64,000 nucleotides of DNA from Octopus vulgaris. Taxonomy: Eukaryota. Positions 9,312 through 46,461 of this stretch are shown here, piece after piece. The notes under the pieces were generated by a model. The model searched no databases. It saw only the letters and a program-made list of their open reading frames with translations, and was not told where the DNA came from. The first letter of the stretch is position 1. Each line of letters begins with the position of its first letter. Made by a program: the position numbers and the translations under genes. The stretch is taken from positions 107,942,001 to 108,006,000 of the forward strand of contig OX597819.1 in NCBI GenBank assembly GCA_951406725.2, in the 5' to 3' direction.

Positions 9312-9313
<2 letters not shown>

Positions 9314-11852: not shown

Positions 11853-12009
11853 GGTGTATGGAAAATTTTGAAAAATTAATAATATATATATACATTAATT
11901 CAAACCAGTTTTTGTCACAACCGGTTTTCGTCAAGAATTGTAAAGTGAAAAGAAAAAAAAATTTTTTTTATGTTTGAGTAACCAGCGTTTTTTTCCCCCT
12001 CCTCAAACA

Positions 12010-13651: not shown

Positions 13652-13707
<56 letters not shown>

Positions 13708-15903
13708 TCTCTCCTTCCCCGTCTCTGATCTAACACACCAAATCGTCCCACCCCCAAACACCTAATCTCTATATAAACCAGCGTTTGCTCTGTCCTCCTA
13801 ATTTAAGCATTGATCTAACCCTAATATCTTCTCCGTATATTATCTATCTCTTTTTCTTCTTCCTCTCTCTATTTTTTATCTCTCTGTATTGTAAACATGA
13901 TGTTGCTAGCTTCCTATTTGTCCTTTTCGATACATTTTCTATATTCCTAATTTATTTCAGGGTATTTCCTTTTCTCCCAAAATTCCCTAGAATGATTTCG
14001 GCTTTCAGCTTTTCTCGATTTTTTTTTCCGGCATTTCCTGTTTCATTAAGTTTTTATTTCGAACCACGTCCTGCCATAGAAAATACTCCCTCATGGCGTC
14101 TCCTCTCTCTTTCTCTATCTCTCTCTCCCTCCCCATCTCCGATCTAACACACCAAATCGTCCCCCCCCCCCAAACCACTAATCTCTATATAAACCAGCGT
14201 TTGCTCTGTCCTTGCCTCTACTCAATTCTCACTGCTTTGCTTCGGATGATAAACTCGGATCTCAGAAATGTGCAGCTAAGATATATATTTTGACGCTAAC
14301 CTTAGTTCATTACCGTTTAAACGTTGATCTAACACCCCAAATCTTCCCCACCCGAAACCCCCAAATCTCTATATAAACCAGCGTTTGCTCTGTCCTTGCC
14401 TCTACTCGATTCTCACTGCTTTGCTTCGGATGATAAACTCGGATCTCAGAAATGTGCAGCTAAGATATATATTTTGACGCTAACCTTAGTTCATTACCGT
14501 TTAAGCGTTGATCTAACCCTAATATCTTCTCCGTATATTATCTATCTCTCTATCTTCTTCCTCTCTCTATTTTTTATCTCTCTCTATTGTAAACATGATG
14601 CCGCTAGCTTCCTATTTGTCCTTTTCGATACATTTTCTATATTCCCTATTTATTTCAGGATATTTTCTTTCTCCGAAACTTCCCTGAAATGATTTCGGCA
14701 TTTCTTGTTTCTTTAAGAAAGGACAAATAGGAAGCTTATGGCATCATGTTTACAATAGAGAGAGATAAAAAACAGAGAGAGGAAGAAGATAGAGAGATAG
14801 ATAATATACGGAGAAGATATTAGGGTTAGATCAACGCTTAAACGGTAATGAACTAAGGTTATCGTCAAAATATATATCTTAGCTGCACATTTCTGAGATC
14901 CGAGTTTATCATCCGAAGCAAAGAAGTGAGAATCGAGTAGAGGCAAGGACAGAGCAAATGCTGGGTTATATGGAGATTAGTGGTTTGGGTGGGGGGGAAG
15001 ATTTGGTGTGTTAGATCGGAGATGGGGAGGGAGAGAGAGAAAGAGAGAGGACACGCCATGAGGGCGAATTCTCCATCGCAGGACGTGGTTCGAAATAAAA
15101 ACTTAAAGAAACAGGAAATGCCGCAAAAAAAAAAAAAAACGCGAGACAAGGTTAAAGCCGAATTCAATTTAGGGAATTTTGGGAGAAAGGAAATACCCTG
15201 AAATAAATGAGGAATATAGAAAATGTATATTATCTATTTCTCTATCTTCTTCCTGTCTCTATTTTTTATCTCTCTCTATTGTAAACATGATGCCGCTAGC
15301 TTCCTATTTGTCCTTTTCGATACATTTTCTATATTCCTCATTTATTTCAGGGTATTTCCTTTTCTCCCTAAATTCCCCAAAATGATTTCGGCTTTCAGCT
15401 TTTCTCGATTTTTTTTTTCGGCATTTCCCGTTTCATTAAGTTTTTATTTCGAACCACGTCCTGCCATAGGGAATTCTACTTCGTGGCGTTGCCTCTCTCT
15501 CTCCCTCCCCGTCTTCGATCTAACACACCAAGTCGTCCCACCACCAAACACCTAATCTCTATATAGACCAGCGTTTGCTCTGTCCTAATTTAAGCGTTGA
15601 TCTAACCCTAATATCTTCTCCCTATATTATCTATCTCTCTATCTTCTTCCTCTCTCTATTTTTTATCTCTATTGTAAACATGATGCCGCTAGCTTCCTAT
15701 TTGTCCTTTTCGATGCATTTTCTATATTCCTCATTTAGTTCAGGGTATTTCCTTTCTCCCAAAATTCTGTTAAATGATTTCGGCTTTCAGCTTGTATCGC
15801 GTTGTTTTTCGGCATTTCCTGTTTCTTTAAGTTTTTATTTCGAAGCACGTCCTGCCACAGAGAATACTCCTTCGTGGCGTCACCTCTCTCTCTCTCTCTC
15901 TCA

Positions 15904-15940
<37 letters not shown>

Positions 15941-18720: not shown

Positions 18721-18879
18721 CCCTCCCACCCCTTCCACCAAAACCTGAAGTTAGTACGAAGTTAGTACCTCAGTCTGTTTCTCCCCTCCCGCAGACACTC
18801 CCACACCCCTATAGTAGGGCTATTCGATCATATAGCGCAAAAACTATAGTGTATGAAGGTTGTAGTCTAGTGTTTATTT

Positions 18880-21800
18880 ATGAAATTTGCCAATCGCAAG
18901 TCTTCTTTTCAGGTACATGACACTTCTGTCCCACATCCCAGGGTCCCACAGGCCCACTCCTCTCACACCCTCAGTGTTGGTACACTCAATGTTGGCACAT
19001 TGAAAGGTAGGTCTGGTGAGATTGTCGAGCTGCTTGAACGGAGACGTGTGGATGTGCTGCATCCAAGAAGTAAGGTGGAGAGGAGGTTCCGCTAGGCTCC
19101 TCACAGGCAAGGAACACAGGTACAAGATTTTCTGGGCAGGGAACACTGACGGGGTTGGGGGCGTGGGTATACTTCTTGCAGAGAAATGGGTAGATAAAGT
19201 AATCGAGATAGTCAGAGTAAGTGACAGTGTACTTAAGGTTAGATTAGTGCCTCACCATTGGTCAGCTACCACCATCTTGGCATATGCCCCTCAAACAGGG
19301 CTACCGGAAGGACAGAAAGACCAATTCTATGACACCCTATTACAAACTACCTCGTTGACAAATGACAGTGACCTTCTATTTGTGGCAGGTGACTTCAATG
19401 GACATGTTTGAATGCATGTCGGGGGCTACGGTTTTGGTTCTCGCAATGAGGAGGGAACCGGGCTGCTGGAGTTCGGCGATGCAAATGACCTAATGATTTG
19501 CAATACCAGCTTCAGGAAACCCACCTCTCACCTTGTCACTTACCGTTCTGGCAGACACACTACCCAGATCGACTACATCCTTGCCAGAAAGAGGGAAAAA
19601 GGGCTGCCCAGAAGAAGAATAGCTCGGAGGAGAAGAGTCTGGAAACTTAAAGATCCTGTAAATGGACGGAGATTTAGAGAAGTTCTACTCGAAGCTTTCG
19701 ATGAAATAGAAGGGGATATAACATCACATAATGTGGAAGCCAACTGGAGGTTTCTACGGGACAATCTGCTGAGAGCTACTGACCACATCTGTGGATGGAG
19801 CAAAGTCCCATCTCGTCCCAGGGTAACGTGGTGGTAGAATATTGTTGTAGACAGGGCTATTAAAGACAAGAGACAGGCTTGGAAGGACTGGAGGAAAGGC
19901 GGTTGTAGGGAATTGTATCAGACTGCGAAAAGAGAAGCTGGGAGACAGGTATATCTAGCTAGAGGGGAAGCAGATAAGAAAAAATTTGCCAATGTTCTGC
20001 GCCATGAGGACCAAAGACTTGAGTTGTTTCGTGTTGCAAGACAGTGTGTGAGAGAGAATCGTGATGTGGTAGGAGAGAAATGTGTTTGCATGGATGATGG
20101 TTCACTTGCGTTAAATGAGGATGCAAAGAGAGAGGTTTGAAGATGCCACTATGAAAGGTTGCTCAAAAAAGAGAATGAATGGGATAAAGAGAGTCTGCCG
20201 AATGTCGACCCAATAGAGGGACCAGCTATCCGAGTTGACAGTTCCATGGTAGTTAAGGCAATTGGAAGCATGAAGACAGGGAAAGCCCCAGGCCCGTCAG
20301 GAATTACTGCTGAGATGCTCAAAATATCTGGCAGTGTCGGCTATAGCCTAGTCACCCGTATAGTTAACCAGGTGATACACGAAGGAGTCATACCCAATGA
20401 CTGGTGTAGTAGCATAATAGTCAACTGCTACAAAGGTAAAGGTGACGCCCTAGATACAAGTAATTACAGAGGTATTAAGCTGTTGGATCAAGTAATGAAG
20501 GTTACAGAAAGGGTCATTGCCCAACTGATTAGAGAGAGAGTCAACCTAGACGAGATGCAGTTTGGTTTTGTGCCAGGGAAAAGCACCACTGATGCGATAT
20601 TTCTGGTGAGACAGCTGCAGGACCTTGCTCTAATTGCTGAGTGACTATCAGAACTGGAGGAGAAGTTTCAGGTGTGGAAGCAAGGATTAGAATCAAAGGG
20701 CCTTAGAGTCAATCTAGCTAAAACCAAAGTCCTAATAAGTAGGAAGGTAGACAAATCTCAAACACCTTCAGGTAGATGGCCCTGCTCGATCTGTAGAAAA
20801 GGCGTAGGTAGGAACTCTATAAGATGCACCAAGTGTAAGCTATGAACACATAAGAGGTGCAGCAATGTCAAAGGAAGGCTAACCAGGAAGATAGTTTTTG
20901 TATGTGGCAGATGCTCTGGTTCAATAAAGACTGAAGATGCGCAGAGACCATCTTCCGCCACATTCCAGGGAGAAAAACTTGAAATAGTTGATAGTTTCCG
21001 TTACCTAGGTGACCAAGTCAGTAGCGGGGGTGGGTGTGCCAAAAGTGTAACTGCTAGAGTAAGAATAGCCTGGGCAAAGTTCAGAGAGCTCTTACCTCTG
21101 CTGGTGACAAAGGGCCTTTCACTCAGAGTAAAAGGCAGACTGTATGACGCATGTGTGCGAACAGCCATGCTACATGGCAGTGAAACATGGGTCGTGACTG
21201 CTGAGGATATGCGTAAGCTCGCAAGAAATGAAGCCAGTATGCTCTGTTGGATGTGTAATGTCAGTGTTCATACCCGACAGAGTGTAAGTGCCTTGAGAGA
21301 AAAGTTGGAGCTAAGAAGCATCAGATGTGGTGTGCAAGAGATGCGTCTACGCTGGTATGGACACGTAGTAAGAATGGATGAAGATAGTTGTGTGAAAAAG
21401 TGCTACACCCTAGAGGTTGAGGGAACCTGTGGAAGAGGTAGACCCAGGAAAGCCTGGGACGAGGTGGTGAAGAACGACCTTCGCGCTTTAGGTCTTACCG
21501 AGGAAATGACCAGAGACCGAGACCTTTGGAAGTATGCTGTGTGCGAGAAGACCCAGCAGGACACATGAGGCCATAACCCATGGCCCCTCCCTGGGACGTA
21601 GTCAGTCCACCTGTGCATACCTTCCTTCTTGGGACACTTGTGAAGACCTGTTGAGGCAAGTGAAAATCAAAATCAAAATAAAAATCAAACCAAATCAAAA
21701 TCGATGACCATCAATGGAATTTGTATCTTTGTGGTACCAGTGCCGGTGGCACATAAGAAGATCATCCGAACGTGGCCGTAGCCAGTACCGCATCGTCTGA

Positions 21801-22038
21801 CCTCCGTGCTGTGGGCACGTAACAAACACCATCCGATCATGGCCGTTCGCCAGCCACGTCTGGCACCTGTGTCGGTGGCACATAAAATCACTCACTACAC
21901 TCTCGGAGTGGTTGGCGTTAGGAAGGGCATCCAGCTGTAGAAACACTGACTGGCCTGGTGCAGCCTTCGGGCTTCCCAGACCCCAGTTGAACCGTCCAAC
22001 CCATGCTAGCATGGAAAGTGGACGTTAAACGATGATGA
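18880..22038 (+). mobile_element. Near full-length but internally deleted RTE LINE
   Basis: APE N-terminus GTLNVGTL, CCIQEVRW, GDFNGHV and QIDYIL. RT start present, but RT motifs A-C deleted at ~20620 (RQLQ|DLALIAE). PHD-like insert. C-terminal RLRWYGHV and GRGRPRKAW. (GAT)n tail. Confidence 0.93.
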
Positions 22039-22281
22039 TATATGTATGTATGTACATATGTATGTGTGTATATATATATTTGAGTAATTGAATGAATTAT
22101 CTTATTAAGGATAATTCGAAAGATAACCGATACCTGGGTAGCAAATTCACATCAGAAAGAACATGGTTGAAGCTACGTCCCTAGGGCATAGACTACGTGT
22201 CTTCGTGCGGAAATTTCTATGTTTATTTTAAAAATTATCAGTATATGAAAGAATGGAGTTGAACAACTAGTTAACAAATAT

Positions 22282-22376
22282 CCTTTATTCTCGACATATG
22301 TTTCGAAGGCTGCATATTCCTAATTCCGAAGGAATAAGGAGTACATTATGCAGATTTCTCATCAGGAAAATCAAGG
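22282..22376 (-). ncRNA. Type I hammerhead ribozyme with extended stem II
   Basis: Minus strand ATTTTC-CTGATGA-GAA..CTGCATA...TATGCAG..TTC-GAAA-CATAT-GTC-GAGAAT. Stem I ATTTTC/GAGAAT; palindromic stem III ACATATGT. Confidence 0.8.
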
Positions 22377-22573
22377 AACTTATGTCGACATCAAAATGCA
22401 CAAAAAACTTTTAGCTGACCGCTCTCAAGGAGTGTTACTTTATAATGAGTGACGTCAGAGTGGCTGAATGTAGAAGAATCTAGAAGTTTCTAAAGGTTCA
22501 AGAGTTCAAACGAAGTAGGAGGAGGGAGGCATAAGAATAGTAAGGTGAGAGAGTGCAGGTCAAAAGAATGGTG

Positions 22574-22998
22574 GGTTTAAATGATTTCTTTTGTGAATGA
22601 GTGCCTGTGTGTGTGACTGTATATAACTGTCTTAATGTGTGTATGTGTGTGTCTGAATGCGTGATTGTGTTTGTGGATGGGTAGATGTCAGAAAACTGAC
22701 AGCTGTGAGTTGAAAGGTCTGTATCTGTGTGTTCGATTATGTTTACTGTAGGGAAAAGAAAGTAGATAGCGAAAGGGAGAAAGAATCGGGCGAGGTGAGA
22801 GGCTATCTACTTTCCTTTCCCTACAATAAACATAATCGAACACACAGATACAGACCTTTCAACTCACAGCTGTCAGTTTTCTGACATCTACCCATCCACA
22901 AACACAATCACGCATTCAGACACACACATACACACATTAAGACAGTTATATACAGTCACACACACAGGCACTCATTCACAAAAGAAATCATTTAAACC
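22574..22998. repeat. 197-bp inverted repeat with 31-nt loop
   Basis: 22574-22770 is the reverse complement of 22802-22998, with two mismatches seen. Confidence 0.93.
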
Positions 22999-23280
22999 AC
23001 TGACACAGGATTTATCCTTCGAAACGTAGAGTAGATGAAACCTTAGCGACTGAAGAAGGGGTTTTTTCGTTGTCTTAATTGTCCTGTACTCCATTTTCTG
23101 TTGTTTTTAAAAAAATCTCCTGTTCCTTTGGTTTGTGTCTATGTTTTCGTTTCTCTTTGTGTTCGACGTCCCTTTGGTGTCCTGTACTCATATATGCGTG
23201 TATATGTACATGTAGAGGTAGGTACGTACATATATGTTTATATATATGCATATGTTTTATTTCATTTATTAATATATATA

Positions 23281-23444
23281 TCATCATCATCATCATCATC
23301 ATCATCATTTAGCGTCCGTTTTCCATGGGTTGGACGGTTCAACTGGGGTCTGGGGAGCCCGAAGGCTGCACCAGGCCAGTCAGATCTGGCAGTGTTTCTA
23401 CAGCTGGATGCCCTTCCTAACGCCAACCACTCCGAGAGTGTAGT
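23281..23444 (-). repeat. RTE 3' terminal fragment with (GAT)n tail
   Basis: Matches 8503-8662 and is truncated at the (TA)n where the Penelope 3' end lies. Confidence 0.85.
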
Positions 23445-23554
23445 ATATATATATATATATATATAATATAATTCGAGACAAAACCACTATTTTAAAACCA
23501 AACAAGGAAAGACTTAATCAATACATAAAATTTTAATATAAATTAAATAAACCG

Positions 23555-23597
23555 CCACTACAAATGTTTCATGTCTGCTCCGACAATCTTCAGGTGG
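23555..23597 (-). ncRNA. Minimal type I hammerhead ribozyme (PLE, downstream pLTR)
   Basis: CCAC-CTGAAGA-T-TGTC(GGAGCA)GACA-T-GAAA-CATTT-GTA-GTGG. Conserved core with stems I, II and a minimal stem III. Confidence 0.8.
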
Positions 23598-24100
23598 ATT
23601 TTCGATCTAAAAATAGCAATATTTTAAAATATAATTTAAAATAATTTCAAATATTAAAACAATAAAATTATCAATGAAAGAATGTAAAAAAATAAAAATA
23701 TAATCTATATATAATCTATATATAATCTATATATAATCAATATATAATCTAAAATAATCTAAAATAAACCCTATAAACAATTGAATATAAAAACCTATTA
23801 TAAAAGTTCTCATATTTAAAAATGTACAAAAACCAAAAAACAACAAGCAAGAAACAAAAACCAAAACCTAAAAACAAAAAACAAAAAACAAAAAATAAAC
23901 TATATATACACATACATGCTCATACACTCAACACATTACTTATTCATACTTCCTCACACACACATACAACACTCAATTCATAAACAATATACATATACCC
24001 GCTCACACATACATATACATACACATACATACAGAACACGATATATACCAATATATAAACACCCACACCCATACAGATAAATAAATTACGCAAACAATCA

Positions 24101-24134
<34 letters not shown>

Positions 24135-27040
24135 TTTTCACACATACATAAACACTCAAAAGAAAACCGAACAATTCTTAGCACGTGGATATCAAACATT
24201 TAAAAAAAATTATGAATAGAAATGAAATCCATACATTCAAGTATAAATATAACTATACAAACCCTAACACAATACACACAAATACACACACATATATACA
24301 CACACCCACAAACATAACCATATACACACTCACACATACATATACATACGTACAAGTCCCGATACAAACAAACTTTAATAAAACGACCATGAAAAACGAA
24401 AACTCATATATATTAATATATATATAAAAGAGTGTGTACACGCAGACGGGTCCAATCACACGCACATTCAAAACTTACATATATACAAGTGCATAAATAA
24501 TCACACCCAATTACATAGCACTCATACACTCCCACATCTACACTTACACTTGTACACTCTCACACATACATACACACCCATACCCACATACAAAAAATTC
24601 TTAGTAAAATAATCATGATAAATAAAATCCATACATACAAGTATAAATATAAAGATACAACCCATTACACAATACACATAAATACACACACATATATACA
24701 CACACCCACAAACATAACCATATACACACTCACACATACAAATAATACGTACAAAACTCGATACAATCAAATACACACACGCACACAAATTCACACATAC
24801 ATAAACATACAAAAGAAAACAACATCTCTACACATAATACGATATATAAAATACTCCATAAGAAATCAGATTATCATAAGTAACAAGATTAACAAAGGAG
24901 AAATATACATACCTTCTAATCAGTATCAAATTTTGAAGTGAATAACTTTATCCGTTATTACAATAAACAAAAATTGCGTTACCATGGAACCGAACATATA
25001 AAAATTATTAGCGCCGCGTAAAACAGCGTCTTTAAAATTATGAATGGAATATAAAATTCTTAGCGCGTAATAAACAAACGTAAATTAAAAAATTATGAAT
25101 GGATATACAAAACTTTCTACAAATTCTTTAAAAAAACCATAAAAAACGAAAACTCATATAGATATTAATATATATATTAAAAAAATGAATGTGTACACGC
25201 AGACGGGTGCAATCACACGGACATTCAAAACTTGCATGTATACAAGTACATAAATAATCACACTCAATTACATAGCACTCATACACTACCGCATCTATAC
25301 TTACACTTTTACACACGCACACATACATACACACCCATACCTACATACAAAATACTTATTAAACTAATCATGATAATGAAGTCTATACATACAAATATAA
25401 AGATAAAGATAAAACCCCATTCATACACAATACACACAAATACACACACATATATACACACACACAAACATAACCATATACACACTCACACATACATATA
25501 CATACGTACAAACTCAATATATACACTAATATTCATTCACACACTCAATAAAATATTAAGTAAATACAAAACAAAGAAATACCAATTAAATACTAGCTAT
25601 AATTAAAGTCTAAACTATATAACTAAAAATATATATATGGTACTCTAAACTAAAAACAAATTAATCTACAGTAACCTTTAATAGGGGGCTATTAATTTTA
25701 TTAATTTATATATCATTTATGAATGAAATCCATACATACAAGTATAAATATAACTATACAACCCCTAACACAATACACACAAATACACACACATATATAC
25801 ACACCCCCACAAACATAACCTTATACACACTCACACATACATATACATACGTACAAATCTCGATACAAACAAACTTTAATAAAACGACCATGATAAACGA
25901 AAACTCATATATATATATTAAAATATATATAAAAGAGTGTGTACACGCAGACGGGTGCAATCACACGCACATTCAAAACTTACATGTATACAAGTGCATA
26001 AATAATCACACCCAATTACATAGCACTCATACACTCCCACATCTACACTAACACTTATACACACTCACACATACATACACACCCATACCTACATACAAAA
26101 ATTCTTATTAAAATAATCATGATAAATAAAATCCATACATACAAGTATAAATATAAAGATACAACCCCTTACACAATACACACAAATACACACACATATA
26201 TACACACACCCTCAAACATAACCATATACTCACTCACACATACAAATACATACGTACAAAACTCGATACAAGCAAAAACGCACACACACACACATTCACA
26301 CATACATAAACACACAAAAGAAAAACAACATTTCTACACATAATATGAATGGAATATACAAAACTTTCTACAATTCTTTAAAAAAACCATAAAAACTAAA
26401 ACTCAAATAGATATTAATATATATATATATAAAAATGAGTGTGTACACGCAGACGGGTGCAATCACACAGACATTCAAAACTTGCATGTATACAATTGCA
26501 TAAATAATTACACTCAATTACATAGCACTCATACACTACCGCATCTATACTTACACTTGTACACACGCACACCTACATACACACCCATACCTTTATGCAA
26601 AATACTTATTAAACTAATCATGATAATGAAGTCCATACATACAAATAAAAAGATAAAGATAAAACCCCTTTCATACACAATACACACAAATACACACACA
26701 TATATACACACACCCACAAACATAACCAAATACACACTCACACATACATATACTTACGTACAAACTCGATATATACACTATTATTCATTCCCACACTCAA
26801 TAAAATATTAATTAAATACAAAACAAAGAAATACCAATTAAATACTAACTATAATAAAAGCCTAAACTATAAAACTATAAATATATACTTGGTACTCTAA
26901 ACTAGAAACAAATTAAACTAAAATAACCTATAATAGGGGGCTATTAATTTTATTTATCAGGGAACCTATTATATAGGTAAAGTAATCTATGTCTACATTT
27001 TATTTTACGCTCTTCACCTATATTAAGTAAATTATCATAC

Positions 27041-27848
27041 TTATAAAATAAAAATTTCTTTAAACTCATTAGAGCATAAATAACAACAATTCGCTCCTAT
27101 AGTATATGATTTAGTTTTACAAATTATTTCCCAATTAAAACTATAATTAATATTTTGTGATTTAATTCTCCAAATGTACTTACTAAGTCCAGTGGAGTTG
27201 ATTAAGTTTTTATTTTTAAAAGAATTCATATGTTGTGCGATTCTTAATTTTATTTTAGAGGAAGTAGACCCTATATAAACCGCTGTTGGGTAATTATTCT
27301 TCTTAAAGTTATTATCATGTAATGTAACTATACATTTATACACTACATCTTTAATATCACATTTATTATTTAATTTACATTTAGATTTATCTCTACAAGT
27401 ACAATTAATATATGTCTTATCCTTATTAATATTATCAAATAATTTATTTTTATAAAAATTATTCAGTTTAAATTTATTAAATGAAGAAATAATGTTACCT
27501 ACATTATTAGTAGTGGAATAACCTACTCCAAAATTATCACTAGAGAAAATATTTTTATATTTACGATTATCTCTAATAAATAGTTCTATAATATCCAAAA
27601 TCTCTTTGATAATATTCGTTTTTACTTGATCACCATAAGGAACTATTAACCAAATTTTATTCTTATTCACCTTATTATAATTGTCAGTATTATAATTATT
27701 AAATTTAGAATTCTTCATATTATCAAAATTATTATCAGAATTATATTTATATACAGCATTTAAGGAATTATTAATGTTATTAATTTTATCCATATTATTA
27801 TTATTATTATTATTCAATTTATTTTTATTTTTATTTTTATTTTTATTA

Positions 27849-27910
<62 letters not shown>

Positions 27911-29491
27911 TTTATTTTTATTATTTTTATTTTTATTTTTTATTTTATAATTTCTAATATTTATACCACTAATACCAACAAAATTATAATTATTATTATA
28001 ATTATCTCGAAAATTATTTAAATCTATATCATCAATATTATAAAATTTAATATTCCTATTATAACCTGCCCCTCTAAGGGCCTCATTATAATAAGTGGCA
28101 TGTCTATTAAAAATCTCTATATCATAAGAGAGTAATGAAATACGTTTACTTATATTATTAATCAACGAATTTTTAATAGAATTTGGGTGATTACTATTAA
28201 CATTTATATACCTAAGGTTCTCATTAATTTTATGATATGGTTGTGTTTTACCTGTAATTAGATTAAAATTAACATCTAGATAATTAACATTATAATTCTC
28301 CTTATATATAGTAATACTTAAACCATATCTTTTAAAGAAACTATATAGTTTTTTCTTATATACTTCTAGATTCCTTTTAGTACAATTCTTTGTAATTAGT
28401 AGAAGATCATCTCTATATAAACCACCCTCTATCTTAAGATTTTCTAATTGGAGTTCAGATAAAAGATAAATACCTACTAAATCAGTAGCTTGTGCAGAAT
28501 CTGGTGCTCCCATAGGTATATCAAAACAATCCCTAGTATCATTCCTAGCCCATAATTTATTTTTATATTTAATGAGCGATTTCCTAGCCATTTTAATTAC
28601 ATTAACTTCTTCACGTGACATTCCAACTTTATTCATTGCGAAAATAAGTGCTTTATTAAACACAATTTCATTAATAGAAGAATAATAATTATCTAAATCT
28701 ATTTGAATAAATTTAAAACGATTTTTATCTTTAATATTATTAAACCATCTCAATGTATTGTTATTACTAAACCATAATTTCAAATAATTAAGTTTATTTA
28801 ATTTATTGATATATTTATCTAAAATAAATTTACTTAATTTACCTAAGTCAGATTTACATGGGCAAATTAATCTAACTTTAGGGTCTGAATAAAAATTATC
28901 TTTATGGTCTTTAAGAGTAATTCTGGGGTTCAAAGGTACATATGGTTCAGTTTTATTATCCAATTCATATTTTAACATTACTAATTTAGAGGCCTTATTA
29001 ATATTATAAAGTATATCATCTGGAACAATTTTATATTTTTTAATTATTTCTTTCCCTAAAAGTTTATCATATAAATTAACATCTAATTTATATAAATTCC
29101 TAGTTTTATCAGATTGTACTATAATACCATCCATATTTCTCATATCTTTAATTTTAATTGCTAAGTTTCTTAAATATTCATTATTTCTATTTGGGTATTT
29201 ATAGAATTCAATATTTTTTACTACCTTCCATATATTATCTTCTAGTAATTGTAATTCTTTATTAAATGGAGGTTCCTTTCTAGATTTAAATTTAGAGGTA
29301 AAAATATCATTCCTACTATCATTATCATTAAATAAATAAAAATTATAGTAATAAGATTTCCATTTAATTCTAGAAATAAAATCTTTAACATTATTAATAA
29401 GTTTCAAAATAAATTCCTTTCTAGAAGGTATAGGAATATCTTTCAAAGATGAATCCCAAAACAGTGGTTCTATCTTACCTGTAAATTCCAT
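27041..29491 (-). CDS. Penelope-like RT + C-terminal GIY-YIG endonuclease, 816 aa; C-terminus apparently frameshifted
   Basis: SDKT (DKG-type motif), PKVRLI, IDLDNYYSSI, IPMGAPDS, YRDDLL, NYLDV and SNHP. EN motifs CTCRDKSKC, VVYKC..VYIGST, RIAQH and CYLCSNE. Confidence 0.92.
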
Positions 29492-29721
29492 AATTACGAA
29501 ATTGAGGTATTACACTCAATATACAAAATTATCAATATATTAAATAATAATAAATATTAGGGAATGAATCCAAAATTACAGGGAAAAATCAGATTTAGGG
29601 TTAAATCCAATTTTATAGTAAAATATTATATAATATAATTCGAGACAAAACCACTATTTTAAAACCAAACAAGGAAAGACTTAATCAATACATAAAATTT
29701 TAATATAAATTAAATAAACCG

Positions 29722-29764
29722 CCACTACAAATGTTTCATGTCTGCTCCGACAATCTTCAGGTGG
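29722..29764 (-). ncRNA. Minimal type I hammerhead ribozyme (upstream pLTR)
   Basis: Same sequence as 23555-23597, ~230 nt upstream of the ORF ATG. Confidence 0.8.
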
Positions 29765-30257
29765 ATTTTCGATCTAAAAATAGCAATATTTTAAAATATA
29801 ATTTAAAATAATTTCAAATATTAAAACAATAAAATTATCAATGAAAGAATGTAAAAAAATAAAAATATAATCTATATATAATCTATATATAATCTATATA
29901 TAATCAATATATAATCTAAAATAATCTAAAATAAACCCTATAAACAATTGAATATAAAAACCTATTATAAAAGTTCTCATATTTAAAAATGTACAAAAAC
30001 CAAAGAACAACAAGCAAAAAACAAAAACCAAAACCTAAAAACAAAAAACAAAAAATAAACTATATATACACATACATGCTCATACACTCAACACATTACT
30101 TATTCATACTTCCTCACACACACATACAACACTCAATTCATAAACAATATACATATACCCGCTCACACATACATATACATACACATACATACAGAACACG
30201 ATATATACCAATATATAAACACCCACACCCATACAGATAAATAAATTACGCAAACAA

Positions 30258-30289
<32 letters not shown>

Positions 30290-31026
30290 TTTCACACATA
30301 CATAAACACTCAAAAGAAAACCGAACAATTCTTAGCACGTGGATATCAAACATTTAAAAAAAATTATGAATGGAAATTAAATCCATACATTCAAGTATAA
30401 ATATAACTATACAAACCCTAACACAATACACACAAATACACACACACATATATACACACACCCACAAACATAACCATATACACACTCACACATACATATA
30501 CATACGTACAAGTCCCGATACAAACAAACTTTAATAAAACGACCATGAAAAACGAAAACTCATATATATTAATATATATATAAAAGAGTGTGTACACGCA
30601 GACGGGTCCAATCACACGCACATTCAAAACTTACATGTATACAAGTGCATAAATAATCACACCCATTACATAGCGCTCATACACTCCCACATCTACACTT
30701 ACACTTGTACACTCTCACACATACATACACACCCATACCTACATACAAAAAATTCTTAGTAAAATAATCATGATAAATAAAATCCATACATACAAGTATA
30801 AATATAAAGATACAACCCATTACACAATACACATAAATACACACACATATATACACACACCCACAAACATAACCATATACACACTCACACATACAAATAA
30901 TACGTACAAAACTCGATACAATCAAATACACACACGCACAAAAATTCACACATACATAAACATCCAAAAGAAAACAACATCTCTACACATAATACGATAT
31001 ATAAAATACTCCATAAGAAATCAGAT

Positions 31027-34000
31027 TAATAAATGTGATATTAAAGATGTAGTGTATAAATGTATAGTTACATTACATGATAATAACTTTAAGAAGAATA
31101 ATTACCCAAAAGCGGTTTATATAGGGTCTACTTCCTCTAAAATAAAATTAAGAATCGCACAACATATGAATTCTTTTAGAAATAAAAACTTAATCAACTC
31201 CACTGGACTTAGTAAGTACATTTGGAGAATTAAATCACAAAATATTAATTATAGTTTTAATTGGGAAATAATTTGTAAAACTAAATCATATACTATAGGA
31301 GCGAATTGTTGTTATTTATGCTCTAATGAGTTTAAAGAAATTTTTATTTTATAAGTATGATAATTTACTTAATATAGGTGAAGAGCGTAAAATAAAATGT
31401 AGACATAGATTACTTTACCTATATAATAGGTTCCCTGATAAATAAAATTAATAGCCCCCTATTATAGGTTATTTTAGTTTAATTTGTTTCTAGTTTAGAG
31501 TACCAAGTATATATTTATAGTTTTATAGTTTAGGCTTTTATTATAGTTAGTATTTAATTGGTATTTCTTTGTTTTGTATTTAATTAATATTTTATTGAGT
31601 GTGGGAATGAATAATAGTGTATATATCGAGTTTGTACGTAAGTATATGTATGTGTGAGTGTGTATTTGGTTATGTTTGTGGGTGTGTGTATATATGTGTG
31701 TGTATTTGTGTGTATTGTGTATGAAAGGGGTTTTATCTTTATCTTTTTATTTGTATGTATGGACTTCATTATCATGATTAGTTTAATAAGTATTTTGCAT
31801 AAAGGTATGGGTGTGTATGTAGGTGTGCGTGTGTACAAGTGTAAGTATAGATGCGGTAGTGTATGAGTGCTATGTAATTGAGTGTAATTATTTATGCAAT
31901 TGTATACATGCAAGTTTTGAATGTCTGTGTGATTGCACCCGTCTGCGTGTACACACTCATTTTTATATATATATATATTAATATCTATTTGAGTTTTAGT
32001 TTTTATGGTTTTTTTAAAGAATTGTAGAAAGTTTTGTATATTCCATTCATATTATGTGTAGAAATGTTGTTTTTCTTTTGTATGTTTATGTATGTGTGAA
32101 TGTGTGTGTGTGTGTGCGTTTTTGCTTGTATCGAGTTTTGTACGTATGTATTTGTATGTGTGAGTGAGTATATGGTTATGTTTGAGGGTGTGTGTATATA
32201 TGTGTGTATTTGTGTGTATTGTGTAAGGGGTTGTATCTTTATATTTATACTTGTATGTATGGATTTTATTTATCATGATTATTTTAATAAGAATTTTTGT
32301 ATGCAGGTATGGGTGTGTATGTATGTGTGAGTGTGTATAAGTGTTAGTGTAGATGTGGGAGTGTATGAGTGCTATGTAATTGGGTGTGATTATTTATGCA
32401 CTTGTATACATGTAAGTTTTGAATGTGCGTGTGATTGCACCCGTCTGCGTGTACACACTCTTTTATATATATTTTAATATATATATATGAGTTTTCGTTT
32501 ATCATGGTCGTTTTATTAAAGTTTGTTTGTATCGAGATTTGTACGTATGTATATGTATGTGTGAGTGTGTATAAGGTTATGTTTGTGGGTGTGTGTATAT
32601 ATGTGTGTGTATTTGTGTGTATTGTGTTAGGGGTTGTATAGTTATATTTATACTTGTATGTATGGATTTCATTCATAAATGATATATAAATTAATAAAAT
32701 TAATAGCCCCCTATTAAAGGTTACTGTAGATTAATTTGTTTTTAGTTTAGAGTACCATATATATATTTTTAGTTATATAGTTTAGACTTTAATTATAGCT
32801 AGTATTTAATTGGTATTTCTTTGTTTTGTATTTACTTAATATTTTATTGAGTGTGTGAATGAATATTAGTGTATATATTGAGTTTGTACGTATGTATATG
32901 TATGTGTGAGTGTGTATATGGTTATGTTTGTGTGTGTGTATATATGTGTGTGTATTTGTGTGTATTGTGTATGAATGGGGTTTTATCTTTATCTTTATAT
33001 TTGTATGTATAGACTTCATTATCATGATTAGTTTAATAAGTATTTTGTATGTAGGTATGGGTGTGTATGTATGTGTGCGTGTGTAAAAGTGTAAGTATAG
33101 ATGCGGTAGTGTATGAGTGCTATGTAATTGAGTGTGATTATTTATGTACTTGTATACATGCAAGTTTTGAATGTCCGTGTGATTGCACCCGTCTGCGTGT
33201 ACACATTCATTTTTTTTAATATATATATTAATATCTATATGAGTTTTCGTTTTTTATGGTTTTTTTAAAGAATTTGTAGAAAGTTTTGTATATCCATTCA
33301 TAATTTTTTAATTTACGTTTGTTTATTACGCGCTAAGAATTTTATATTCCATTCATAATTTTAAAGACGCTGTTTTACGCGGCGCTAATAATTTTTATAT
33401 GTTCGGTTCCATGGTAACGCAATTTTTGTTTATTGTAATAACGGATAAAGTTATTCACTTCAAAATTTGATACTGATTAGAAGGTATGTATATTTCTCCT
33501 TTGTTAATCTTGTTACTTATGATAATCTGATTTCTTATGGAGTATTTTATATATCGTATTATGTGTAGAGATGTTGTTTTCTTTTGTATGTTTATGTATG
33601 TGTGAATTTGTGTGCGTGTGTGTATTTGATTGTATCGAGTTTTGTACGTATTATTTGTATGTGTGAGTGTGTATATGGTTATGTTTGTGGGTGTGTGTAT
33701 ATATGTGTGTGTATTTATGTGTATTGTGTAATGGGTTGTATCTTTATATTTATACTTGTATGTATGGATTTTATTTATCATGATTATTTTACTAAGAATT
33801 TTTTGTATGTGGGTATGGGTGTGTATGTATGTGTGAGAGTGTACAAGTGTAAGTGTAGATGTGGGAGTGTATGAGTGCTATGTAATTGGGTGTGATTATT
33901 TATGCACTTGTATATATGTAAGTTTTGAATGTGCGTGTGATTGGACCCGTCTGCGTGTACACACTCTTTTATATATATATTAATATATATGAGTTTTCGT

Positions 34001-34258
34001 TTTTCATGGTCGTTTTATTAAAGTTTGTTTGTATCGGGACTTGTACGTATGTATATGTATGTGTGAGTGTGTATATGGTTATGTTTGTGGGTGTGTGTAT
34101 ATATGTGTGTGTATTTGTGTGTATTGTGTTAGGGTTTGTATAGTTATATTTATACTTGAATGTATGGATTTCATTTCTATTCATAATTTTTTTTAAATGT
34201 TTGATATCCACGTGCTAAGAATTGTTCGGTTTTCTTTTGAGTGTTTATGTATGTGTGA

Positions 34259-34298
<40 letters not shown>

Positions 34299-34936
34299 TT
34301 GTTTGAGTAATTTATTTATCTGTATGGGTGTGGGTGTTTATATATTGGTATATATCGTGTTCTGTATGTATGTGTATGTATATGTATGTGTGAGCGGGTA
34401 TATGTATATTGTTTATGAATTGAGTGTTGTATGTGTGTGTGAGGAAGTATGAATAAGTAATGTGTTGAGTGTATGAGCATGTATGTGTATATATAGTTTA
34501 TTTTTTGTTTTTTGTTTTTTGTTTTTAGGTTTTGGTTTTTGTTTCTTGCTTGTTGTTTTTTGGTTTTTGTACATTTTTAAATATGAGAACTTTTATAATA
34601 GGTTTTTATATTCAATTGTTTATAGGGTTTATTTTAGATTATTTTAGATTATATATTGATTATATATAGATTATATATAGATTATATATAGATTATATTT
34701 TTATTTTTTTACATTCTTTCATTGATAATTTTATTGTTTTAATATTTGAAATTATTTTAAATTATATTTTAAAATATTGCTATTTTTAGATCGAAAATCC
34801 ACCTGAAGATTGTCGGAGCAGACATGAAACATTTGTAGTGGCGGTTTATTTAATTTATATTAAAATTTTATGTATTGATTAAGTCTTTCCTTGTTTGGTT
34901 TTAAAATAGTGGTTTTGTCTCGAATTATATTATATA
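31027..34936 (+). mobile_element. Inverted 5'-truncated Penelope copy (GIY-YIG coding part + whole 3'UTR)
   Basis: Reverse complement of 23460-27368. Encodes NKCDIKDVVYKC...EFKEIFIL. Confidence 0.93.
34799..34841 (+). ncRNA. Minimal type I hammerhead ribozyme (inverted copy)
   Basis: CCACCTGAAGATTGTCGGAGCAGACATGAAACATTTGTAGTGG read directly on +. Confidence 0.8.
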
Positions 34937-35399
34937 TATATATATATATATATACTACACTCTCGGAGTGGTTGGCGTTAGGAAGGGCATCCAGCTGTAG
35001 AAACACTGCCAGATCTGACTGGCCTGGTGCAGCCTTCGGGCTCCCCAGACCCCAGTTGAACCGTCCAACCCATGGAAAACGGACGCTAAATGATGATGAT
35101 GATGATGATGATGATGATATATATATTAATAAATGAAATAAAACATATGCATATATATAAACATATATGTACGTACCTACCTCTACATGTACATATACAC
35201 GCATATATGAGTACAGGACACCAAAGGGACGTCGAACACAAAGAGAAACGAAAACATAGACACAAACCAAAGGAACAGGAGATTTTTTTAAAAACAACAG
35301 AAAATGGAGTACAGGACAATTAAGACAACGAAAAAACCCCTTCTTCAGTCGCTAAGGTTTCATCTACTCTACGTTTCGAAGGATAAATCCTGTGTCAGT

Positions 35400-35824
35400 G
35401 GTTTAAATGATTTCTTTTGTGAATGAGTGCCTGTGTGTGTGACTGTATATAACTGTCTTAATGTGTGTATGTGTGTGTCTGAATGCGTGATTGTGTTTGT
35501 GGATGGGTAGATGTCAGAAAACTGACAGCTGTGAGTTGAAAGGTCTGTATCTGTGTGTTCGATTATGTTTATTGTAGGGAAAGGAAAGTAGATAGCCTCT
35601 CACCTCGCCCGATTCTTTCTCCCTTTCGCTATCTACTTTCTTTTCCCTACAGTAAACATAATCGAACACACAGATACAGACCTTTCAACTCACAGCTGTC
35701 AGTTTTCTGACATCTACCCATCCACAAACACAATCACGCATTCAGACACACACATACACACATTAAGACAGTTATATACAGTCACACACACAGGCACTCA
35801 TTCACAAAAGAAATCATTTAAACC
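35400..35824. repeat. Mirror copy of the 197-bp hairpin
   Basis: Reverse complement of 22574-22998. Confidence 0.9.
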
Positions 35825-36021
35825 CACCATTCTTTTGACCTGCACTCTCTCACCTTACTATTCTTATGCCTCCCTCCTCCTACTTCGTTTGAACTCTTGA
35901 ACCTTTAGAAACTTCTAGATTCTTCTACATTCAGCCACTCTGACGTCACTCATTATAAAGTAACACTCCTTGAGAGCGGTCAGCTAAAAGTTTTTTGTGC
36001 ATTTTGATGTCGACATAAGTT

Positions 36022-36116
36022 CCTTGATTTTCCTGATGAGAAATCTGCATAATGTACTCCTTATTCCTTCGGAATTAGGAATATGCAGCCTTCGAAACAT
36101 ATGTCGAGAATAAAGG
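36022..36116 (+). ncRNA. Type I hammerhead ribozyme with extended stem II (mirror copy)
   Basis: CTGATGA at 36033-36039, GAAA at 36094-36097, GTC at 36103-36105. Confidence 0.8.
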
Positions 36117-36315
36117 ATATTTGTTAACTAGTTGTTCAACTCCATTCTTTCATATACTGATAATTTTTAAAATAAACATAGAAATTTCCGCACGAAGACA
36201 CGTAGTCTATGCCCTAGGGACGTAGCTTCAACCATGTTCTTTCTGATGTGAATTTGCTACCCAGGTATCGGTTATCTTTCGAATTATCCTTAATAAGATA
36301 ATTCATTCAATTACT

Positions 36316-36388
<73 letters not shown>

Positions 36389-36407
36389 ATATGTACATAC
36401 ATACATA

Positions 36408-39400
36408 TATCATCATCGTTTAACGTCCACTTTCCATGCTAGCATGGGTTGGACGGTTCAACTGGGGTCTGGGAAGCCCGAAGGCTGCACCAGGCCAGTC
36501 AGTGTTTCTACAGCTGGATGCCCTTCCTAACGCCAACCACTCCGAGAGTGTAGTGAGTGATTTTATGTGCCACCGACACAGGTGCCAGACGTGGCTGGCG
36601 AACGGCCATGATCGGATGGTGTTTGTTACGTGCCCACAGCACGGAGGTCAGACGATGCGGTACTGGCTACGGCCACGTTCGGATGATCTTCTTATGTGCC
36701 ACCGGCACTAATTTTACAAAGATACAAATTCCATTGATGGTCATCGATTTTGATTTGGTTTGATTTTTATTTTGATTTTCACTTGCCTCAACAGGTCTTC
36801 ACAAGTGTCCCAAGAAGGAAGGTATGCACAGGTGGACTGACTACGTCCCAGGGAGGGGCCATGGGTTATGGCCTCATGTGTCCTGCTGGGTCTTCTCGCA
36901 CACAGCATACTTCCAAAGGTCTCGGTCTCTGGTCATTTCCTCGGTAAGACCTAAAGCGCGAAGGTCGTTCTTCACCACCTCGTCCCAGGCTTTCCTGGGT
37001 CTACCTCTTCCACAGGTTCCCTCAACCTCTAGGGTGTAGCACTTTTTCACACAACTATCTTCATCCATTCTTACTACGTGTCCATACCAGCGTAGACGCA
37101 TCTCTTGCACACCACATCTGATGCTTCTTAGCTCCAACTTTTCTCTCAAGGCACTTACACTCTGTCGGGTATGAACACTGACATTACACATCCAACAGAG
37201 CATACTGGCTTCATTTCTTGCGAGCTTACGCATATCCTCAGCAGTCACGACCCATGTTTCACTGCCATGTAGCATGGCTGTTCGCACACATGCGTCATAC
37301 AGTCTGCCTTTTACTCTGAGTGAAAGGCCCTTTGTCACCAGCAGAGGTAAGAGCTCTCTGAACTTTGCCCAGGCTATTCTTACTCTAGCAGTTACACTTT
37401 TGGCACACCCACCCCCGCTACTGACTTGGTCACCTAGGTAACGGAAACTATCAACTATTTCAAGTTTTTCTCCCTGGAATGTGGCGGAAGATGGTCTCTG
37501 CGCATCTTCAGTCTTTATTGAACCAGAGCATCTGCCACATACAAAAACTATCTTCCTGGTTAGCCTTCCTTTGACATTGCTGCACCTCTTATGTGTTCAT
37601 AGCTTACACTTGGTGCATCTTATAGAGTTCCTACCTACGCCTTTTCTACAGATCGAGCAGGGCCATCTACCTGAAGGTGTTTGAGATTTGTCTACCTTCC
37701 TACTTATTAGGACTTTGGTTTTAGCTAGATTGACTCTAAGGCCCTTTGATTCTAATCCTTGCTTCCACACCTGAAACTTCTCCTCCAGTTCTGATAGTCA
37801 CTCAGCAATTAGAGCAAGGTCCTGCAGCTGTCTCACCAGAAATATCGCATCAGTGGTGCTTTTCCCTGGCACAAAACCAAACTGCATCTCGTCTAGGTTG
37901 ACTCTCTCTCTAATCAGTTGGGCAATGACCCTTTCTGTAACCTTCATTACTTGATCCAACAGCTTAATACCTCTGTAATTACTTGTATCTAGGGCGTCAC
38001 CTTTACCTTTGTAGCAGTTGACTATTATGCTACTACACCAGTCATTGGGTATGACTCCTTCGTGTATCACCTGGTTAACTATACGGGTGACTAGGCTATA
38101 GCCGACACTGCCAGATATTTTGAGCATCTCAGCAGTAATTCCTGACGGGCCTGGGGCTTTCCCTGTCTTCATGCTTCCAATTGCCTTAACTACCATGGAA
38201 CTGTCAACTCGGATAGCTGGTCCCTCTATTGGGTCGACATTCGGCAGACTCTCTTTATCCCATTCATTCTCTTTTTTGAGCAACCTTTCATAGTGGCATC
38301 TTCAAACCTCTCTCTTTGCATCCTCATTTAACGCAAGTGAACCATCATCCATGCAAACACATTTCTCTCCTACCACATCACGATTCTCTCTCACACACTG
38401 TCTTGCAACACGAAACAACTCAAGTCTTTGGTCCTCATGGCGCAGAACATTGGCAAATTTTTCTTATCTGCTTCCCCTCTAGCTAGATATACCTGTCTCC
38501 CAGCTTCTCTTTTCGCAGTCTGATACAATTCCCTACAACCGCCTTTCCTCCAGTCCTTCCAAGCCTGTCTCTTGTCTTTAATAGCCCTGTCTACAACAAT
38601 ATTCTACCACCACGTTACCCTGGGACGAGATGGGACTTTGCTCCATCCACAGATGTGGTCAGTAGCTCTCAGCAGATTGTCCCGTAGAAACCTCCAGTTG
38701 GCTTCCACATTATGTGATGTTATATCCCCTTCTATTTCATCGAAAGCTTCGAGTAGAACTTCTCTAAATCTCCGTCCATTTACAGGATCTTTAAGTTTCC
38801 AGACTCTTCTCCTCCGAGCTATTCTTCTTCTGGGCAGCCCTTTTTCCCTCTTTCTGGCAAGGATGTAGTCGATCTGGGTAGTGTGTCTGCCAGAACGGTA
38901 AGTGACAAGGTGAGAGGTGGGTTTCCTGAAGCTGGTATTGCAAATCATTAGGTCATTTGCATCGCCGAACTCCAGCAGCCCGGTTCCCTCCTCATTGCGA
39001 GAACCAAAACCGTAGCCCCCGACATGCATTCAAACATGTCCATTGAAGTCACCTGCCACAAATAGAAGGTCACTGTCATTTGTCAACGAGGTAGTTTGTA
39101 ATAGGGTGTCGTAGAATTGGTCTTTCTGTCCTTCCGGTAGCCCTGTTTGAGGGGCATATGCCAAGATGGTGGTAGCTGACCAATGGTGAGGCACTAATCT
39201 AACCTTAAGTACACTGTCACTTACTCTGACTATCTCGATTACTTTATCTACCCATTTCTCTGCAAGAAGTATACCCACGCCCCCAACCCCGTCAGTGTTC
39301 CCTGCCCAGAAAATCTTGTACCTGTGTTCCTTGCCTGTGAGGAGCCTAGCGGAACCTCCTCTCCACCTTACTTCTTGGATGCAGCACATCCACACGTCTC

Positions 39401-39561
39401 CGTTCAAGCAGCTCGACAATCTCACCAGACCTACCTTTCAATGTGCCAACATTGAGTGTACCAACACTGAGGGTGTGAGAGGAGTGGGCCTGTGGGACCC
39501 TGGGATGTGGGACAGAAGTGTCATGTACCTGAAAAGAAGACTTGCGATAGGCAAATTTCAT
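36408..39561 (-). mobile_element. RTE LINE, mirror copy of 18880-22038
   Basis: Essentially identical translations and the same deletions and stops. Confidence 0.93.
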
Positions 39562-39719
39562 AAATAAACACTAGACTACAACCTTCATACACTATAGTTT
39601 TTGCGCTATATGATCGAATAGCCCTACTATAGGGGTGTGGGAGTGTCTGCGGGAGGGGGAGAAACAGACTGAGGTACTAACTTCGTACTAACTTCAGGTT
39701 TTGGTGGAAGGGGTGGGAG

Positions 39720-46425: not shown

Positions 46426-46461
<36 letters not shown>

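What the first reader, a model, noticed from the sequence alone, without database searches (positions are those of the whole stretch)
23555..34841. Three minimal hammerhead ribozymes define a 6167-nt unit-length Penelope RNA
Seen: an identical CUGAAGA/GAAA/GUA core at 23555-23597 (-), 29722-29764 (-) and 34799-34841 (+). Known: PLE pseudo-LTRs carry minimal type I hammerheads, often active as dimers. Inference: cleavage after GUA in both minus-strand repeats would release an RNA of 29725 to 23559 (6167 nt) holding the whole ORF, possibly circularisable. Stem II has an unusual U-U juxtaposition at its base.
Basis: partly seen in the sequence, partly recalled or inferred. Interest (0 to 1): 0.72.

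Follow-up and report, generated by a model that had tools for sequence, protein, structure and literature searches.

The report
Hydra-type Penelope element with hammerheads
This is an octopus-type jumping gene of a known group whose repeated ends carry the self-cutting RNA motif typical of that group; only its unusual length and a mirrored copy of neighbouring DNA stand out.

Summary
One identical 43-nt type I hammerhead (HHR) lies at all three places, and the two minus-strand cut sites are 6167 nt apart. [quoted passage not shown] HHRs are published as universal in this clade. The U·U under stem II is not unusual: it occurs in 14 of 25 published Hydra families and 24 of 55 distinct motifs in related loci.

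(1) The motif has a helix III, so it is not 'minimal'.
(2) Only two HHRs bound the unit. The third belongs to a mirrored copy that also duplicates at least 8.8 kb of host flank.
(3) The element ends about 99 nt past the cut, so the doubly cut linear RNA cannot be this insertion's template.
(4) The ORF's terminal CxH motif is out of frame.

What is unusual: the unit is 2.6 times the relatives' median length, and the roughly 12.7-kb inverted arms may be a real fold-back or an assembly artefact (unresolved). Cleavage and circularisation remain untested.

The parts
29722..29764 (-). Type I hammerhead in the 5' pseudo-LTR; predicted cut after 29726
23555..23597 (-). Type I hammerhead in the 3' pseudo-LTR; predicted cut after 23559, about 99 nt before the element's 3' end
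34799..34841 (+). Third hammerhead, in the mirrored 5'-truncated copy; no same-strand partner
23559..29725 (-). Predicted cut-to-cut unit, 6167 nt (relatives 2386-2847 nt)
27041..29491 (-). ORF, 816 codons from the ATG: telomerase-like RT, Asn-rich insert (residues 491-615 of P0001, 50% N), CxCx5C linker, C-terminal GIY-YIG-type domain ending after CxxC-E
26950..27045 (-). Out-of-frame C-terminal tail with the LLN...EE...CRH motif of Hydra endonucleases; the frame shifts near 27045-27055
   Evidence: coordinates counted by hand
29614..31028 (-). 5' pseudo-LTR (copy B), about 1.4 kb, 98% identical to the 3' copy, with 12 private differences
23446..27040 (-). 3' UTR, 3.6 kb, built of internal 400-630 nt repeats (80-95% alike); its last 1.4 kb is the 3' pseudo-LTR (copy A)
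23443..23464 (.). (TA)n target at the element's 3' end, next to a SINE-like repeat
31027..34952 (+). Inverted 5'-truncated copy (C): last ~109 codons plus the whole 3' UTR, 99.6% identical to 23446-27368
31027..31028 (.). Inversion junction: 5' end of the pseudo-LTR joined to ORF position 27368 through 2 nt of microhomology (TA)
27369..31026 (.). Single-copy spacer of the palindrome, 3658 bp
14615..23445 (.). Host flank of the left arm (satellite, decayed RTE LINE, second PLE-like fragment, SINEs)
34953..43266 (.). The same host flank in inverted orientation (right arm); collinear except for one ~570-nt difference in the satellite

Best explanation
A young insertion of an octopus family of Hydra-clade Penelope-like elements into (TA)n, in the clade's standard layout: partial tandem (pLTR-ORF-3'UTR/pLTR) plus an inverted 5'-truncated copy. 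Each pLTR carries the clade's normal type I hammerhead. The motif most likely cuts weakly and conditionally, as a dimer through its quasi-palindromic helix III and/or with help from the element's protein. Cutting would trim read-through transcripts and could release a 6167-nt RNA, but as a side or late step. Reverse transcription for this insertion began about 99 nt downstream of the 3' cut site, on an RNA that still ran through that site, most simply an uncut read-through transcript. The third hammerhead is a passive copy within an inverted duplication. Shown: sequence, layout, motifs, conservation of the motif in relatives. Inferred: activity, dimer or protein dependence, template identity.
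For: Hydra motifs in P0001: KWK49, DKT134, YRDD365, CTCRDKSKC703, VYKC/YIG, CYLC809 (against the definition in PMC8557442 section 11). The predicted model (pLDDT 84.7) has telomerase RTs as its 8 best Foldseek matches. Closest named relatives are octopus fragments (63% over 13% of the query; 77% over a short stretch). 59 of 79 related loci hold a sense-strand HHR against 2 of 79 antisense, and shuffles give 0. In 21 hand-picked motifs, stem I, stem II and helix III show two-sided changes (covariation 0.69 against 0.19 shuffled). U·U occurs in 24 of 55 distinct motifs and 14 of 25 published families. The cofold minimum of the 43-mer is the double hammerhead. The two pLTRs stay identical for 99 nt past the cut. 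In 4 of the 11 matched-pair relatives where a (TA)n run is visible, it begins about 33-92 nt past the cut, never at it (read by eye). [quoted passage not shown]
Against: There is no cleavage or expression data for this motif. Rfam does not recognise it. Competing folds beat the double hammerhead in 4 of 6 context lengths, by 0.7-6.7 kcal/mol. The pair counts come from motifs found by a descriptor that demands pairing, hand-picked (20 of 73 hits, plus this one), so they lean towards the structure. No whole genome was held, so conservation within this family's own copies was not tested. Pfam found no domain in P0001, and no solved structure matched by sequence. The Anolis results are for a Poseidon element, not a Hydra element.
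Confidence: 0.78

Rival explanations
1. One reading: the two pLTR hammerheads pair, cut, and the 6167-nt RNA is ligated into a circle. RT starts about 99 nt past the junction and goes round more than once, which creates the 5' pLTR.
For: It explains the partial tandem and the 3' end beyond the cut in one step. The dimer fold is favourable for the core. It was proposed tentatively in PMC4209133. The motif is strongly conserved in 59 of 79 relatives.
Against: Both pLTRs would be copied from the same nucleotides and start identical. Yet copy B has 12 private differences against 2 for C and 0 for A; 2 further columns differ in all three (p = 8e-5 against equal branches). This argues against the circle only if C is as old as the insertion. 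The two motifs are 6.1 kb apart. In vitro activity of PLE dimers and trimers was low, and no cut-site read ends were seen for the Anolis element.
Confidence: 0.25
2. The mirrored flank (and possibly the exact sequence of the third hammerhead copy) is an assembly artefact. The real locus is flank-A-spacer-C-other flank, and the assembler left the 3.9-kb inverted repeat into the same flank or its second haplotype, then jumped out within the satellite.
For: The arms are nearly identical: 1201 of 1201 nt in one stretch, and 7 substitutions (5 of them in one cluster) in 4747 nt of flank. Collinearity is lost inside a satellite array. PMC8557442 notes that such insertions trouble assemblies.
Against: The window has no N. 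The arm differences include a 6-nt indel, a clustered multi-base change, a ~50-nt TA expansion and a ~570-nt satellite difference. These look biological rather than like consensus errors, although two haplotypes could give them.
Confidence: 0.4
3. The palindrome is real but arose after the insertion, by ordinary fold-back repair of a chromosome break that happened to fall at the head of the element. It is independent of RT and of the ribozymes.
For: The 3658-bp spacer and 2-nt microhomology match human fold-back inverted duplications (median spacer 3428 bp; 2 bp in 7 of 13 junctions; PMC3907307 passages). A and C are closer to each other than to B, as expected of a later DNA-level copy.
Against: The junction coincides with the 5' truncation point of the pLTR and reproduces the standard PLE layout of an inverted 5'-truncated copy, which points to formation during insertion. 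A 2-nt TA match is weak evidence in DNA that is 22-29% GC.
Confidence: 0.3
4. The motif is a vestigial or parasitic passenger with no role for this element.
For: PMC8557442 notes that Naiad elements thrive without HHRs and raises the parasite idea. HHR mutants still insert in vitro. This copy's endonuclease tail is out of frame.
Against: Core invariance, compensatory stem changes, sense-strand bias and a fixed position near the 3' end across relatives only ~35% identical in protein imply selection on the fold.
Confidence: 0.12

Closest known systems
Hydra clade of Penelope-like elements (Craig et al. 2021, PMC8557442), including Hydra-1_Obim from Octopus bimaculoides
   Same: Single ORF with RT and C-terminal GIY-YIG; RWK-type, DKT, CxCx5C and CxxC motifs; (TA)n target; HHR near the 3' end with the same layout, including U·U under stem II; inverted 5'-truncated copy (listed for Penelope-13_HM).
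   Different: Unit of 6167 nt against 'generally <3 kb'. The HHR is 3.45 kb after the stop, against 74-524 nt (median 132) for 38 downstream motifs in relatives. It has an Asn-rich insert. The protein and HHR differ by eye from Hydra-1_Obim, so this is another family. The CxH tail is out of frame. The inverted copy continues into the host flank.
min-HHRs and short-helix-III HHRs of metazoan PLEs (Cervera and de la Peña 2014, PMC4209133)
   Same: Type I motif in both pLTRs, 4-bp helix I, weak helix III with near-palindromic sequence, predicted dimer dependence.
   Different: It has a real helix III (8-nt segment), a short 4-bp helix II, and U·U instead of the G10.1-C11.1 pair reported as highly conserved there.
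Poseidon element of Anolis carolinensis, PAc (Frangieh et al. 2024, PMC11167929)
   Same: pLTR-ORF-pLTR layout; the element ends downstream of the HHR cut, implying an internal RT start; AT-rich target.
   Different: Other clade. The PAc HHR overlaps the ORF start, whereas here the cut is 234 nt upstream of the ATG. Activity was measured there, not here.
Adineta vaga Penelope families (Arkhipova et al. 2013, PMC3846280)
   Same: Asn-rich inserts in the ORF, long spacers before the 3' pLTR (0.9-1.5 kb), inverted pLTR structures attributed to self-priming.
   Different: In the passages seen, the inserts are flanked by target-site duplications or microhomology joins; no kilobase mirrored host flank is described.
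Fold-back inverted duplications with a disomic spacer (Hermetz et al. 2014, PMC3907307)
   Same: Arms around a 3-4 kb single-copy spacer, with 2-nt junction microhomology.
   Different: Human constitutional rearrangements with terminal deletions and much longer arms; here the junction is the 5' end of a retroelement.

Membership tests
Hydra-clade PLE | Telomerase-like RT followed by a C-terminal GIY-YIG-type endonuclease in one ORF | tested here: met
   The best Foldseek matches are TERTs. VYKC/YIG and KLRIAQH motifs are present. One aligned relative matches Pfam GIY-YIG weakly (E 0.0011, 1 of 12); P0001 itself has no Pfam hit.
Hydra-clade PLE | RWK motif near the N-terminus | tested here: met
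   KWK at 49, aligned to RWK in relatives
Hydra-clade PLE | DKG changed to DKT | tested here: met
   DKT at 134, invariant in 12 of 12 rows
Hydra-clade PLE | CxCX5C linker | tested here: met
   CTCRDKSKC at 703-711
Hydra-clade PLE | CxxC and CxH motifs around the conserved E and N | tested here: inconclusive
   CYLC809 and E815 are in frame; LLN...CRH is encoded but in another frame, in both copies
Hydra-clade PLE | Insertion into (TA)n | tested here: met
   TA runs of 22-23 nt at both 3' ends; these are one site duplicated
Hydra-clade PLE | Canonical HHR in the pLTR | tested here: met
   Same column layout as File S2 rows
Hydra-clade PLE | Generally short (<3 kb) - a described tendency, not a diagnostic | tested here: not met
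   6167 nt against 2386-2847 nt in 11 of 14 two-HHR loci with matching motifs
Hydra-clade PLE | RT groups with Hydra references in a tree | not tested
   Reference sequences were seen only as supplement text. P0007 (34% to P0001, E 1e-97) resembles Hydra-2_Amil closely by eye.
Type I hammerhead ribozyme | CUGANGA, GAAA and NUH core in type I order | tested here: met
Type I hammerhead ribozyme | Helices I-III supported by compensatory change | tested here: met
   8 of 11 pairs have two-sided changes among 21 selected motifs; the selection leans towards the structure
Type I hammerhead ribozyme | G10.1-C11.1 pair | tested here: not met
   U·U here. It is a clade-wide alternative: U·U 24, G-C 21, G·U 4, other 6 of 55.
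Type I hammerhead ribozyme | Self-cleavage 3' of H17 | not testable with these tools
   Needs an in vitro assay or RNA end mapping
min-HHR (Cervera 2014) | No helix III / loop 3 beyond the conserved nucleotides | tested here: not met
   8-nt helix III segment ACAUUUGU with 3 pairs possible
Naiad/Chlamys PLE | N-terminal GIY-YIG and no canonical HHR | tested here: not met
   The endonuclease is C-terminal and an HHR is present

The most novel reading that the evidence does not exclude
The palindrome is real and was made during insertion. The first-strand cDNA stopped at 31028, folded back on itself at 27368 through 2 nt of microhomology, and DNA synthesis ran back through the new element and on for at least 8.8 kb into the host flank before switching out in the satellite. 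The locus would then be a footprint showing that the inverted copies typical of PLEs are DNA-templated fold-back copies, and that a PLE insertion can duplicate kilobases of host DNA into a 28-kb palindrome. The 12 private differences of the 5' pLTR would also show that the template was a linear read-through RNA, not a ribozyme-made circle.
Probability: 0.2. Interest if true: 0.62.

Novelty: new member of a known kind. Interest (0 to 1): 0.3.

Why it matters
The hammerheads themselves are expected and already catalogued for this clade. Two modest points have value. First, the U10.1·U11.1 core is the majority form in Hydra elements, and I found no activity test of it (one full-text search, 0 papers). 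A simple assay would test whether this variant cuts and whether HHRs matter for PLE transposition, which PMC8557442 calls unclear. Second, if long reads confirm the mirrored host flank, the locus bears directly on how PLE inverted copies form and on PLEs as a source of large palindromes in cephalopod genomes.

Tried and rejected
- Rfam scans gave no hammerhead hit.
- Monomer folding z-scores were uninformative (0.00 to 1.04 for 4 lengths).
- No whole genome was held, so family copies could not be compared.
- Viral contigs: 20 pattern matches, 0 relatives.
- Pfam on P0001: 0 families. PDB by sequence profile: 0 matches.
- Sequencing-run search: 20 of 24 listed runs hold part of 27041-31400, none half of its words, and no RNA holder is listed. 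No reads were laid, so this is not used as evidence; the junctions, the frameshift and expression remain unchecked at read level.
- Earlier findings of this scan: nothing by place, words or sequence.
- Literature searches for a U-U 10.1/11.1 hammerhead and for Penelope self-priming with flank copying returned 0 papers. A looser search listed 15 of 74 papers, of which I opened one (PMC3846280). These blanks are weak, because only open-licence full text is searched.
Rejected:
- Twin target-primed RT as the sole explanation of the inverted copy: it would give two different flanks.
- U·U as a copy-specific defect: it is clade-wide.
- The third HHR as a boundary of the unit: it is on the opposite strand.
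- Identity with Hydra-1_Obim: the protein and HHR differ by eye.
- A programmed frameshift at the ORF end: I saw no standard slippery heptamer by eye (pattern recalled); not tested further.
Full report
OBSERVATION. The three motifs are real and identical over 43 nt. The predicted cuts after 29726 and 23559 give 6167 nt. A structure descriptor (core, stem I of at least 3 bp, stem II of at least 3 bp, helix III) finds exactly these 3 on both strands of the window. It finds none in 20 block-shuffled windows or in 1.40 Mb of shuffled related loci. Rfam did not call the motif, and its monomer fold is unremarkable, so the case rests on the core and on relatives.

THE CARRIER. The ORF at 27041-29509(-) (P0001; ATG at 29491) has no Pfam hit. 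It has 17 relatives in the first search and 245 at E <= 1e-30 among cluster representatives. Its predicted structure (mean pLDDT 84.7) matches telomerase RTs in the top 8 Foldseek ranks. It carries KWK, DKT, YRDD, CxCx5C, VYKC/YIG and CxxC, which is the motif set given for the Hydra clade in section 11 of PMC8557442. Both 3' ends run into (TA)n. The nearest named sequences are fragments in Octopus bimaculoides and O. vulgaris gene models. That the SINE-like and simple repeats look octopus-like is recalled, not tested. An octopus Hydra family is in print (Hydra-1_Obim, 2507 nt), but its protein and HHR differ by eye. Relatives end in CxxC..E..LLN.R.E....CxH. Here the frame stops seven residues after the E, and the LLN...CRH tail lies in another frame. 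The inverted copy has the same break. As assembled, this copy's endonuclease is probably impaired (inference).

LAYOUT. Read on the minus strand, the order is: inverted 5'-truncated copy C (34952-31027), 5' pLTR B (31028-29614), ORF, a 3.6-kb 3' UTR of internal repeats ending in pLTR A (24873-23446), then (TA)n. A partial tandem with an inverted truncated copy is the standard PLE arrangement (PMC8557442 passages). Two things are not standard. First, the unit is 6167 nt, against 2386-2847 nt (median 2411) in the 11 of 14 two-HHR relatives whose motifs match. The HHR lies 3.45 kb after the stop, against 74-524 nt for 38 downstream motifs. Long spacers and Asn-rich inserts have precedent in rotifer elements (PMC3846280 passages). 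Second, the mirror does not stop at the element's end: unique 32-mers chain 14615-27368 to 43266-31027, with one ~570-nt step in a satellite. The arms differ by 9 substitutions in 3923 nt of element and 7 in 4747 nt of non-satellite flank. The junction joins the 5' end of B to ORF position 27368 through TA, leaving a 3658-bp spacer. Outside the satellite arrays, the left and right sides share only short dispersed matches of 72-93% identity (16 rows).

THE RIBOZYME. Of 495 metagenome stretches encoding relatives, the tool kept the best 80 (79 loci). 59 of 79 hold a sense HHR (73 hits, 55 distinct) and 2 of 79 an antisense one. Of the 58 loci with at least 150 nt after the ORF, 36 have one downstream. 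Positions 10.1/11.1 are U·U in 24, G-C in 21, G·U in 4 and other in 6 of the 55; after coarse clustering, U·U is 21 of 40. File S2 of PMC8557442 shows U·U in 14 of 25 Hydra families (my count). In 21 motifs (this one plus 20 picked by hand from the 73 hits), 8 of 11 pairs show two-sided changes, with covariation 0.689 against 0.185 shuffled. The picking and the descriptor bias this, and three rows with a longer helix III are out of register. The motif has an 8-nt helix III segment, so it is not the helix-III-less min-HHR. The monomer active fold is rare (p = 0.008), whereas two 43-mers cofold best as a double hammerhead. With 15 nt of flank, stem I extends by 7 bp beyond a 5-nt bulge and the double hammerhead is again the minimum, but in 4 of 6 context lengths other folds win by 0.7-6.7 kcal/mol.

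HOW IT LIKELY WORKS. A minus-strand read-through transcript carries two sense HHRs 6.1 kb apart. Cleavage, probably slow and dependent on dimer formation or on the element's protein (as measured for other PLEs), could release the 6167-nt RNA. But pLTRs A and B stay identical for 99 nt beyond the cut, so RT started downstream of the 3' HHR. The template was either uncut at that site or circular. Copy B has 12 private differences against 2 for C and 0 for A, with 2 columns differing in all three. If C formed at insertion, B's differences pre-existed in the RNA, which favours a linear transcript from a tandem donor. If C is a later duplicate or a second haplotype, the test is silent. A transcript starting within C would be antisense to the UTR and could fold back over both ribozymes as long double-stranded RNA (inference), which fits a silenced locus better than an active one.

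THE MIRROR. Three readings remain: an assembly or haplotype artefact (about 0.4), a later fold-back repair (about 0.3; spacer and microhomology match PMC3907307), and fold-back during insertion with run-on into the flank (about 0.2). The remainder covers mechanisms not considered. No read-level evidence was obtained.

PAPERS SEEN. PMC8557442: passages, section 11, supplement part 2 of 59 and search passages. PMC4209133: parts 1-2 of 4; its supplements were not seen and may show U·U motifs or assays. PMC11167929: parts 1-2 of 4. bioRxiv 10.64898/2026.07.22.740005: part 1 of 5, not used for a claim. PMC3907307, PMC3846280 and PMC13282606: passages only; the last lists 31 recently active Penelope-like families in O. 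vulgaris and has no mention of hammerheads in its main text.

VERDICT. A correct sighting of a known feature in a new, oversized family of a known clade. The ribozyme and circle ideas are in print and unproven. The only part that could surprise a specialist is the mirrored host flank, which needs long-read confirmation. Interest 0.3.

Noticed in passing
window 22080-23280 (mirrored 35118-36318): Looks like a decayed fragment of a second PLE-like element (clade recalled, not tested). It has its own ~425-nt hairpin (22574-22998, 93%) and a degenerate hammerhead-like motif at 23000-23028(+), with a CUGACAC core and GAAACGUA.
   Followed up: partly
window 12020-18659 and 39783-47159: Two arrays of a ~444-nt satellite-like unit in opposite orientations, each with short internal inversions and both ending in TA-rich DNA; possibly a mobile tandem element.
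   Followed up: partly
window 18700-22000 (+), mirrored 36400-39700; related copy 5259-7579: Decayed LINE with endonuclease- and RT-like remnants by eye (RTE-type label recalled), 84-89% to the copy at 5259-7579.
   Followed up: partly
window 9174-11894 (-) and 58234-59112 (+): Further RT (RVT_1) fragments.
   Followed up: no
window 53585-55171 (+): Tandem C2H2 zinc-finger ORF, 528 aa, 84-nt period.
   Followed up: no
protein P0018: An O. bimaculoides gene model with a precomputed PF00685 domain (sulfotransferase, name recalled) contains ~100 residues of this PLE family; probably a chimeric annotation.
   Followed up: no
L002 2263 and 2400; L007 136 and 311; L055 2507, 2675, 2956: Related loci with two different hammerheads 130-175 nt apart, or with a tandem pair of antisense hammerheads next to the element, suggesting retrozyme-like repeats beside Hydra elements.
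   Followed up: no
window 21733-21738 and about 22068 versus the right arm: A clustered five-base difference and a ~50-nt (TA)n length difference between otherwise near-identical arms.
   Followed up: partly
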